DNA of 64,000 nucleotides from Octopus sinensis (Eukaryota), in assembly GCF_006345805.1 (NCBI RefSeq), contig NC_042997.1, positions 188,604,001-188,668,000 on the forward strand, given 5' to 3'. The stretch's first letter is position 1. Every line of letters starts with the position of its first letter. The notes below the pieces were generated by a model. That model was not told the DNA's origin. It did no database searches and worked only from the letters and a program-made list of their open reading frames with translations. The position numbers and the translations under genes are program-made. Below, in pieces: positions 2,781-50,790 of the stretch.

Positions 2781-2931
2781 AGTTCTATATTTAAGAGATG
2801 AGGAATTATGTACATTATTTACATTTGACAGATATTTTTCTTAATCTTTTTGTTGTTAACACGACGTTTCAGCTGATATACCCTCCAGCCTTCATCAGGT
2901 GTCTTGGGGAGATTTCAAACCTGGGTTCTCA
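2781..2931 (-). mobile_element. 3' half of the hammerhead-tailed Penelope-like non-autonomous element
   Basis: Homologous to both arms of the 32476-33161 palindrome (ATGTACATTATTT..CCAGCCTTCATCAGGTG). Confidence 0.8.
2858..2903 (-). ncRNA. Minimal type I hammerhead ribozyme motif
   Basis: Minus strand GACAC-CUGAUGA-A-GGCUGG-agggUAUA-UCAGCU-GAAA-CG-UC-GUGUU: intact core, stem I GACAC/GUGUU, stem II GGCUG/CAGCU, palindromic ACGU in place of stem III. Confidence 0.75.
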
Positions 2932-6668: not shown

Positions 6669-6905
6669 TGTGCATGGCTTAGTGGTTAGGGTATTTGGCT
6701 CATGACCATAAGATCATTAGTTCAATTCCTGGTACCACATTGTGTCCTTGAGCAAGACACTTTATTTCATGTTGCTCCAGTCCACTCAACTGATAAAAAT
6801 GAGTAGTACCTGTATTTCAAAGGTACACGAGTCTGTGGAGTGCTTAGCCACTAGCACATTAATTTCACGAGCAAGCTGTTCTGTTGATTGAATCAATGGA
6901 GCACC
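6669..6905 (+). mobile_element. Family D SINE
   Basis: TGGCTTAGTGG A box, GTTCAATTCC B box, then GTGTCCTTGAGCAAGACACTTTATTTCATGTTGCTCCAGTCCACTCAACTG. Confidence 0.8.
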
Positions 6906-32475: not shown

Positions 32476-33161
32476 ATGAATTTTATGTACATTATTTGCA
32501 ATGGACAGATAAGTGTCCTCATCTTGTTTGTTGTTACCACAACATTTCAGTTGATATACTCTCCAGCCTTCATCAGGTGGAATTTTGAACCCAACCCTTT
32601 ATTTGACTAACGGGGTACTCTGTTCCCATTCCTAAAGTATTCCTTTTTTGCTGATGTTATTTTTTCTGTTGATATTATTTCCCAAGTCCCTGACTGGCAC
32701 TGAACTCAGAATCCAAGGGTTAGTAGCCTGTGCTCTTATCCACTATGCTATATGCCCATAGGCAATTATAGAGTGAATTATAGAATGTATTAAGAAAAGA
32801 TAAAATATTAGGTTTATAAGCCCAAAATTTCACTCTATAATTACAGGCATACAGCATAGTAGATAAGAGCACAGGCTACTAACCCTTGGATTCCAAGTTC
32901 AATCTCAGGCTTGAGAAATGATATCAACAGAAAAAATAACATCAGCAAAAAAAAAAAAACCCTTAGGAATGAGAACAGAGTACCCCATTAGTCAACTAAA
33001 GGGTTAGGTTTGAAATTCCACCAGTACACCTGATGAAGGCTGGAGAGTAAGTACTTCAGCTGAAATGTTGTAGTAACAACAGGGTGAGGACACCTATCTG
33101 TCCATTGTAAATAATGTACATAGTTCCTATCTCAAAAATATAGAGTAGTATGAATTTTATG
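32476..33161. mobile_element. Divergent inverted dimer of a tRNA-headed, hammerhead-tailed Penelope-like element
   Basis: Arms of about 290-320 bp around a spacer of about 50 bp; A box TAGCATAGTGG (32740-32750, minus); CUGAUGA..GAAA cores at 32545-32576 (-) and 33030-33065 (+); direct repeat ATGAATTTTATG at both ends. Confidence 0.85.
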
Positions 33162-49639: not shown

Positions 49640-49714
49640 CCCTAATCATGAAGAACACATAAAAATTCCAACATAAAAACAACTGCTACTTATCACACTT
49701 TCTCTATGACTTAT

Positions 49715-49964
49715 TCTGTTGTGTCTGGGGAGAGTCATTTTCTTTTTGTGCCTTATAATGTAACATACACACCGGTAAAATTTCCACTTTTTTCTTATTT
49801 TTATTTTCCTAAAATTTTCATTGCGTCTTGCAACCTTTTCAATAGTATTGAGTGTGTTACATTATAAGGCACAAAAAGAAAATGACTCTCCCCAAACACA
49901 ACAGAATATGCTTCAACACACAAACTCACATAAAGAATCTTGCAAACCAAATCCAAAAATGAAA
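49715..49964. mobile_element. Inverted-structure Penelope-like non-autonomous insertion
   Basis: 12-bp TSD TCTATGACTTAT (49703-49714, 49965-49976); inverted repeat of about 55 bp at 49712-49768 / 49851-49908; asymmetric arms; diverged relative at about 50488-50610. Confidence 0.8.
49808..49846 (-). ncRNA. Putative minimal hammerhead ribozyme, U3-A8 core variant
   Basis: Minus strand CUA-UUGAAAA-G-GUUGC-aagac-GCAAU-GAAA-AU-UU-UAG. Confidence 0.55.
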
Positions 49965-50620
49965 TCTATGACTTATGTTATATAACTTTACAAATTTGCA
50001 TCAGGAAAGACTAGAATCTTCTTTAGGGTGAAGAAATGCTCTTATCCCGGTTAATTGTTGTCCCTTTACAATGCTTAAGTAAAAACATTGTTAGCACTGG
50101 AACAATGTTTTTGTTGCTCACACAGATGCCCTACATCACATCCAAAAAGAAAACTGTTTGAATGATTTACTTGATACAAGCCTTTCTATTGGGGTATTCC
50201 ATTAGACCTATTTTTGTATTGAGTCAAAGATATTTTTATCAAGAGTTTAGCCTTTAGTCTACAGTCCAGTGAGATACAATTACAATAGCTTTTTAGGTTT
50301 TCACCTCCTTTCAGAATGACATGTTAGATTACTAAGTACTAAAGTATGACATTAGGAGAAAATGATGGATAAATCTCTATATATTTAAGCTCAATGAACT
50401 ACAAACAGAAATCAATACTCTCTACATCTTCCTTAGACTGCTTCCATATCTGTACTATTTTTAGTAAACTGATGAAATTCTGCATTTGACATTTTATATT
50501 TGGTTTGCAACATTCTTGATGTTAACTTGTGAGTTGAAACAGATTTTGTTGTATCTTGGAAGGGTCATTATGCCAGGAATAAACACACACATAGTTTTAT
50601 TTCACTTCTTTTGTTATTAT

Positions 50621-50790
50621 CATGTGACTTAATGGTTAGGGTGTTGGGAGTCCTGATCATAGGACTGCAGTTTTAATTCCTGGATTGAGTAACATTTTGT
50701 GTTCTTAAGCAAAGCATTTAATTTTACTTCATGTTGCTCCTGTCCACTCAGCTGACAAAAACGGGTAGTCTTGGGACAGAATTAACACGC
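50621..50790 (+). mobile_element. Family D SINE (decayed)
   Basis: GTGACTTAATGGTTAGGG..GTGTTCTTAAGCAAAGCATTT..GTTGCTCCTGTCCACTCAGCTG. Confidence 0.65.

What the first reader, a model, noticed from the sequence alone, without database searches (positions are those of the whole stretch)
49703..49976. Second, unrelated inverted insertion carrying a U3-A8 covariant hammerhead
Seen: a 250-bp insertion into a LINE-relic region, with a 12-bp TSD and asymmetric inverted arms, so not a TIR MITE. Next to the inversion junction the minus strand reads CUA UUGAAAA G GUUGC aagac GCAAU GAAA AU UU|UAG. This is the same architecture as the 2858 ribozyme (extra nucleotide after A9, 5-bp stem II, palindromic stem III, here AAUU), but with C3->U and G8->A. 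Established: positions 3 and 8 form a Watson-Crick pair in the active hammerhead, so U3-A8 is the compensatory variant, and CUGANGA searches would miss it. Inference: a cryptic PLE-derived ribozyme family. Stem I is only 3 bp, possibly cut short by the inversion. A diverged relative lies at about 50488-50610.
Basis: partly seen in the sequence, partly recalled or inferred. Interest (0 to 1): 0.75.

Follow-up and report, generated by a model that had tools for sequence, protein, structure and literature searches.

The report
Penelope retrotransposon end with variant hammerhead
This 250-base insert is a short two-armed copy of the end of a common Penelope-type jumping gene, carrying a hammerhead-shaped RNA motif whose U3-A8 core swap is already known from flatworm elements; it likely cuts RNA only slowly and in pairs, and cutting is untested.

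Summary
The insert (49715-49964, 12-bp TSD) is a head-to-head, 5'-truncated pair of pseudo-LTR arms of an abundant Penelope-like element. Longer copies carry a reverse transcriptase, a Cys linker and a GIY-YIG endonuclease. The U3-A8 core is the family norm (40 of 41 copies). Stem I is 3 bp in ORF-linked copies too, so the inversion did not shorten it. This copy also has a decayed G10.1-U11.1 pair. The best support for a real fold is covariation across four sister families, where pair 3:8 reads U-A, C-G, U-G and G-C. I did not find natural G3-C8 in print. Short copies mostly begin about 13 nt upstream of the ribozyme, not at its cut site, and RNA reads show no pile-up there, so cleavage is unproven. 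The scan has noted this covariation before, in this genome and in others.

The parts
49703..49714 (.). Left target-site duplication (12 bp)
   Evidence: 12 bp is the commonest TSD length in the family (15 of the 40 copies with a detected TSD, of 95 examined)
49712..49851 (-). Ribozyme-bearing arm: starts 9 nt upstream of U3 and ends at the short family end point about 26 nt after the ATG; no tail
   Evidence: row L031 (family positions 38-177)
49809..49845 (-). Minimal type I hammerhead motif: U3 49842, A8 49837, extra G 49835, 5-bp stem II, 4-nt palindromic stem III strand, 3-bp stem I, predicted cut 49812|49811; position 11.1 (49820) is U instead of the family's C
49849..49851 (.). Head-to-head junction with a 3-nt overlap between the arms
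   Evidence: overlap -3
49849..49964 (+). Tail-bearing arm: 5' UTR, ORF start and tail, ending at the long family end point about 84 nt after the ATG
   Evidence: family positions 118-234
49882..49964 (+). First codons of the element's ORF (stop at codon 27 in this copy); start inferred from a homologous full-length sister element
   Evidence: (L223 ORF begins with the homologous peptide)
49909..49964 (+). 'Tail' of about 57 nt, present on one arm only
49965..49976 (.). Right target-site duplication
50488..50615 (-). Fragment of an older sister family (family C): 5' UTR and ORF start only; its ribozyme part is absent here

Best explanation
The insert is a 5'-truncated, head-to-head copy of the pseudo-LTR of an abundant Penelope-like retrotransposon, and it carries that element's minimal hammerhead motif with a U3-A8 core pair, which likely self-cleaves slowly as a dimer or with protein help in the parent RNA and is likely inactive in this lone, decayed copy. 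Shown: family membership, linkage to an RT plus GIY-YIG ORF, two fixed 3' end points, 12-bp TSDs, a preferred 5' boundary about 13 nt upstream of U3, and base-pair covariation across sister families. Inferred: a short RNA starting just upstream of the ribozyme is copied uncut. The endonuclease nicks both target strands 12 nt apart, reverse transcription starts at two internal sites (ATG+26 and ATG+84), and the two cDNAs join head to head through short overlaps. Inferred from published biochemistry: U3-A8 keeps the pair that positions the 2'-OH of residue 8, so the swap is tolerated.
For: Family size: 2,041 first-look candidates, 40 scored. ORF link: 23 of 30 loci found with the element's protein carry the motif within 1.5 kb, 17 downstream on the ORF strand and 6 only as an inverted upstream arm. 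GIY-YIG passes the Pfam cut-off. L111 has the window's layout with the ORF in between. Among 95 unique insertions chosen by the ORF start alone, 69 have an inverted arm, 59 of those 69 end at positions 167-179, and the tail arms end at 227-235 (tail ends were selected for). 3:8 pair: U-A in 40 of 41 copies. One copy from each of four families: 3:8 = U-A, C-G, U-G, G-C, with double changes also at stem II pairs 3 and 4, stem I pairs 2 and 3, and 15.2:16.2; none of the 10 pairs scored is broken. ORFs of families B and A are each 54% identical to that of D. Literature: PMC4209133 (same core, 3-bp helix I, dimer model), PMC3088659, PMC11167929 (two internal RT starts, uncut RNA used, protein-assisted cleavage), PMC8557442 and PMC3846280 (inverted pLTR, tail, TSD).
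Against: No cleavage was shown. RNA reads from three runs of a related organism give no pile-up of ends at the cut site and even depth across it (weak, since reads lie about equally on both strands, about 6% of each run was read, and most probably come from read-through). Only 1 of 95 tail arms starts exactly at the cut site, and 8 within positions 73-85. Stems I (3 bp) and III (4 A-U pairs) are weak: a dimer with one formed junction scores -9.9 against -14.6 kcal/mol for two free monomers (no tertiary terms). G12 has decayed to A in 14 of 54 copies. Sister family B has C at position 9, and family C mostly has a U3-G8 wobble, so the core is less constrained than in fast ribozymes. No intact family-A ORF was found: the longest open frame among 150 ORF-start hits was 147 aa. 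Pfam RT matches are below cut-off. The four representatives were picked because they parse, which favours intact pairs.
Confidence: 0.8

Rival explanations
1. The motif is a hammerhead-derived fold kept for a non-catalytic job (protein binding, promoter or template folding), and family A no longer cleaves.
For: Copies were made from uncut RNA and no cut ends are seen. Stems I and III are very weak. Sister families tolerate C9 and U3-G8. Cervera and De la Pena report low activity and do not exclude other functions. Ribozyme mutants do not block insertion in vitro.
Against: U4, G5, A6, G12-A15.1, U16.1 and a non-G at 17 are the same in all four families, and the 3:8 pair, which matters for the active conformation, stays paired through four states. 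In a related organism the family D loop II is almost wholly substituted while no change of 10% or more is listed in its core (4 rows not shown).
Confidence: 0.15
2. The 250-bp unit is a non-autonomous element (MITE, SINE or retrozyme) that spreads as this palindromic unit.
For: Most copies are short and two-armed (69 of 95), and their 5' ends cluster.
Against: The junction differs from copy to copy while the two outer ends are fixed. The same sequence is the terminal repeat of ORF-bearing elements. There are no terminal inverted repeats, and no head-to-tail arrays appeared in the alignments inspected.
Confidence: 0.04
3. The hammerhead resemblance is chance in A-rich sequence.
For: Folding z-score is only -1.09, there is no Rfam hit, and a looser scan gave several stray core-like hits in the window.
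Against: 0.014 hits expected per window, and complete motifs sit at the homologous place in four families with compensatory changes.
Confidence: 0.01

Closest known systems
U3-A8 minimal hammerhead of Schistosoma mansoni Cercyon Penelope-like elements (Cervera and De la Pena 2014, PMC4209133; parts 1-2 of 4 of the main text and parts 1-2 of 3 of the supplementary PDF read)
   Same: Same seven-letter core as their S. mansoni (4) row, 3-bp helix I, extra nucleotide after A9, G10.1-C11.1, palindromic helix III, U at 17, location in the pseudo-LTR.
   Different: Different host and sequence; stem II is 5 bp rather than 6; the extra nucleotide is G (their consensus is H, though one row has G); the parent has a Neptune/Nematis-type linker.
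EN+ Penelope-like elements of the Neptune/Nematis type (PMC8557442 and PMC3846280, passages read)
   Same: [quoted passage not shown]
   Different: The tail is about 57-59 nt rather than the 30-40 bp described. The clade was not fixed by a tree.
Poseidon element PAc of the green anole (Frangieh et al. 2024, PMC11167929; parts 1-2 of 4 read)
   Same: Two fixed end points inside the ORF start, AT-rich targets, uncut RNA as template, no RNA-seq ends at the cut site.
   Different: There the ORF starts inside the ribozyme and the core is C3-G8; here the ATG lies about 74 nt after the cut site.
Natural U3-A8 hammerheads in Perreault et al. 2011 (PMC3088659, section 8 read)
   Same: Same compensatory swap, described there as active in vitro in earlier work.
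   Different: The section read gives no Penelope-like context or minimal architecture for them.

Membership tests
Minimal type I hammerhead of metazoan PLEs | Core boxes with a paired 3:8, GAAA and UH | tested here: met
   U-A in 40 of 41 copies; the variant is published
Minimal type I hammerhead of metazoan PLEs | Extra nucleotide between 9 and 10.1 | tested here: met
   G in 44 of 46 copies; the published consensus is H, with one G row
Minimal type I hammerhead of metazoan PLEs | G10.1-C11.1 pair | tested here: met
   Family: C in 47 of 52 copies; the window copy has U, giving a wobble
Minimal type I hammerhead of metazoan PLEs | Palindromic 15.2-16.2 and short helix I | tested here: met
   Four-base palindrome and a 3-bp stem I, also in ORF-linked copies
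Minimal type I hammerhead of metazoan PLEs | Located in the pseudo-LTR of a PLE | tested here: met
   17 of 30 ORF loci carry it downstream on the ORF strand
Minimal type I hammerhead of metazoan PLEs | Self-cleavage (as a dimer or with protein) | not testable with these tools
   No bench assay; RNA reads show no end pile-up, a weak test
EN+ Penelope-like element, Neptune/Nematis type | C-terminal GIY-YIG endonuclease | tested here: met
   PF01541 at 25.9 and 28.8 bits against a cut-off of 22.6
EN+ Penelope-like element, Neptune/Nematis type | Reverse transcriptase in the same ORF | tested here: met
   RT motif with the catalytic DD visible in frame with the endonuclease in L111; Pfam RVT_1 only E=0.021 in L110, below cut-off
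EN+ Penelope-like element, Neptune/Nematis type | CX2-5CxxC linker before the GIY-YIG motif | tested here: met
   C-X4-C-X2-C in family A; definition
EN+ Penelope-like element, Neptune/Nematis type | Inverted 5'-truncated pseudo-LTR, one-sided tail, TSD | tested here: met
   69 of 95 inverted; two end points about 57 nt apart; TSD mode 12 bp, none detected in 55 of 95
EN+ Penelope-like element, Neptune/Nematis type | Placement in a named clade by RT phylogeny | not tested
TIR MITE | Terminal inverted repeats at both ends and a fixed interior | tested here: not met
   One arm extends 57 nt further and junctions vary between copies
Non-LTR retrozyme | Non-coding head-to-tail repeats each with a hammerhead | tested here: not met
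   Copies are head-to-head and belong to an ORF-bearing element; definition

The most novel reading that the evidence does not exclude
One clade of Penelope-like elements in this genome has moved the hammerhead's catalytic 3:8 pair through C-G, U-G, U-A and G-C while staying mobile. That includes an active natural G3-C8 ribozyme in a young family with a near-complete element (L223), a state I found in print only as a laboratory double mutant. These families would form a natural series for asking how much cleavage a Penelope element needs, and standard CUGANGA searches would miss thousands of such motifs.
Probability: 0.4. Interest if true: 0.5.

Novelty: new member of a known kind. Interest (0 to 1): 0.27.

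Why it matters
The motif as flagged adds one more host and family to a published variant, so it matters little alone. Its use is as part of a set. Four sister families with different 3:8 pairs give natural covariation evidence that Penelope hammerheads are selected for the active-site geometry, although the inserted copies come from uncut RNA. What these ribozymes do in the Penelope cycle is still open, and this set offers ready constructs to test it.

Tried and rejected
Rfam scans found no hammerhead; this is expected for a minimal variant and was not used against the motif. The idea that the ORF of the 50488 relative continues into the flank was rejected: the frame stops after 24 codons, and a sister-family PLE protein finds nothing in the window. 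The idea that short copies start at the ribozyme cut was rejected. tallies were not de-duplicated and were biased by the first query, so counts come. No RNA holder was listed on record in the run search; this is no evidence either way. A DNA search with the family D tail returned nothing (common words are skipped), and a protein search then found the element. No ORF was found beside family C in loci L118-L182, so its link rests on the shared N-terminal peptide and position. Family C's U3 share (20 of 25) is inflated because the query had U3. Papers not held: Lunse et al. 2017, Przybilski and Hammann 2007, Nelson and Uhlenbeck 2008, Arkhipova et al. 2017. Any of them, file 1 of the Cervera supplement (not searched) or its unread third part could already list G3-C8 or cephalopod motifs. 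Searches for natural G3-C8 or an octopus Penelope hammerhead; none found.

Full report
Observation. A 12-bp direct repeat lies at 49703-49714 and 49965-49976, and 60-nt inverted arms at 49712-49771 and 49849-49908. On the minus strand the motif parses as a 3-bp stem I, a U3...A8 core (49842-49836), an extra G, a 5-bp stem II, GAAA, a four-base palindrome and U17, with the predicted cut at 49812|49811. The predicted fold is stem I plus stem II, of ordinary stability. A descriptor that accepts any Watson-Crick 3:8 pair finds two motifs in the window against 0.014 per shuffle. Rfam does not detect it. The 'LINE relic' is only weakly supported.

What the insert is. It belongs to a large family (2,041 first-look candidates, 40 scored). 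In 30 aligned copies the two outer ends are fixed and the inner junction varies. Copies that run further upstream lead through a CA-rich UTR into a GIY-YIG endonuclease and a reverse transcriptase. Of 30 loci found with the element's protein, 23 carry the motif within 1.5 kb: 17 downstream on the coding strand, and 6 only as an inverted arm upstream. The protein has a C-X4-C-X2-C linker before the endonuclease, the mark of Neptune/Nematis-type elements in PMC8557442 (passages). I built no tree and found no intact family-A ORF. Earlier scan notes call the host an octopus; I did not test that.

Anatomy. To avoid selecting for the ribozyme I took 98 loci found by the ORF start alone, 95 unique after removing duplicates. 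Sixty-nine have an inverted arm; 59 of these end 17-29 nt after the ATG, while the other arm ends about 84 nt after it, which leaves a one-sided tail of about 57 nt. A TSD was detected in 40 of 95, most often 12 bp (15 of 40). This is the layout described for Penelope-like elements (PMC8557442, PMC3846280; passages), with a longer tail than the 30-40 bp given there. The window copy is one such product: a ribozyme arm on the minus strand and a tail arm on the plus strand, joined over 3 shared bases. It holds one ribozyme only.

The ribozyme within the family. The pair is U-A in 40 of 41 copies that cover it. ORF-linked copies have the same 3-bp stem I, so the inversion did not shorten it. The family has C at 11.1 (47 of 52); the window's U is CpG decay, and the same CpG has turned G12 into A in 14 of 54 copies. 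Inserted copies are therefore decaying. In 31 copies with the whole motif, non-CpG core sites differ at 1.8% against 4.5% in the UTR (p=0.02), but loop II differs at only 0.8%, so this test does not single out the core.

Sister families. Three other families share the N-terminal peptide and carry a complete motif upstream of it. Family B is young, has long open ORFs, and reads C3-G8 with C at 9. Family C, to which the 50488 relative belongs, is older and reads U3-G8 in 20 of 25 copies (query-biased) and C3 in 5. Family D reads G3-C8, with copies 95-98% alike, a 5-7 bp stem I, and a near-complete element with a ribozyme at each end and one frameshift (L223). With one representative each, none of 10 scored pairs is broken, and six show double changes: 3:8, two in stem II, two in stem I, and 15.2:16.2. 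The representatives were chosen because they parse; one family C copy that did not was swapped out. In RNA reads of a related organism, family D loop II is almost wholly substituted while no core change of 10% or more is listed (4 rows not shown). This is the best evidence that the fold and the 3:8 pair are under selection.

Does it cut? Not shown. Of 95 tail arms, 40 start at family positions 26-50 (10 exactly 13 nt upstream of U3), 6 run further upstream, and 1 starts exactly at the cut site; inverted arms behave alike (34 of 69). The templates were therefore mostly uncut and began just upstream of the ribozyme, which I read as a transcription start (inference). Three RNA runs of a related organism gave 1,051, 1,027 and 780 reads with no pile-up of ends, and the same holds for family D. 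These tests are weak. Both results match the anole element, where uncut RNA is the main template, cleavage needs the protein, and RNA-seq shows no cut ends (PMC11167929). Minimal PLE hammerheads were inactive as monomers and slow as dimers (PMC4209133). Stems I and III of family A are weaker than those of family D.

Comparison with what is known. Cervera and De la Pena found U3-A8 minimal hammerheads through a Cercyon element, about 1,300 hits in S. mansoni. Their alignment has a PLE-linked row with the same core and a 3-bp helix I, a U3-G8 row from Saccoglossus, and no G3-C8 row among those I could read. Perreault et al. reported natural U3-A8 in 2011. G3-C8 appeared in my searches only as a laboratory variant, and I found no paper on octopus Penelope hammerheads. 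Four relevant papers were not held, so absence from print is not established. The scan has already noted the same covariation in this genome and in others. I reached it before reading those notes, and they are not independent support.

Verdict. It is a new member of a known kind, interest 0.27. The G3-C8 sister family and the four-state series are the part worth a bench test.

Noticed in passing
L094:3378(+), L147, L223 (G000:C2:32069500-32078500): Family D: a young, abundant sister element with a G3-C8 hammerhead, 5-7 bp stem I and six-base palindromic stem III; L223 holds a ribozyme at each end of an ORF with one frameshift. Variants with other loops occur at L033 and L131.
   Followed up: yes
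L103-L108, L115: Family B: long open ORFs (up to 1,044 aa) with an asparagine-rich stretch, and a C3-G8 hammerhead with C instead of A at position 9.
   Followed up: partly
L158-L182; window 50488-50615: Family C: mostly U3-G8 wobble at the core with the same stem II as family A; a possible step between C-G and U-A, or a dead lineage.
   Followed up: partly
L092:427(-) and 515(+): A second, unrelated U3-A8 hammerhead-like motif in head-to-head arrangement, without the extra nucleotide and with A at 17.
   Followed up: no
window 2860-2898(-), 33030(+), 32483-32579: Canonical C3-G8 hammerhead family with at least three copies in the window, unrelated in sequence to the insert.
   Followed up: partly
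L063-L066 (G000:C1, about 205.5-205.8 Mb): One family A copy has been multiplied by local segmental duplication, and several duplicates neighbour a LINE with an open 949-aa endonuclease-RT frame (L065).
   Followed up: no
L061:4579-9001: Long tandem array with a period of about 88 bp just upstream of a truncated family A copy.
   Followed up: no
L106:660-1940(-): Endonuclease end of a different GIY-YIG element next to a family B copy.
   Followed up: no
window 50625-50700: A tRNA-like, SINE-type sequence (similar to window 6675-6732) begins where the family C fragment stops.
   Followed up: no
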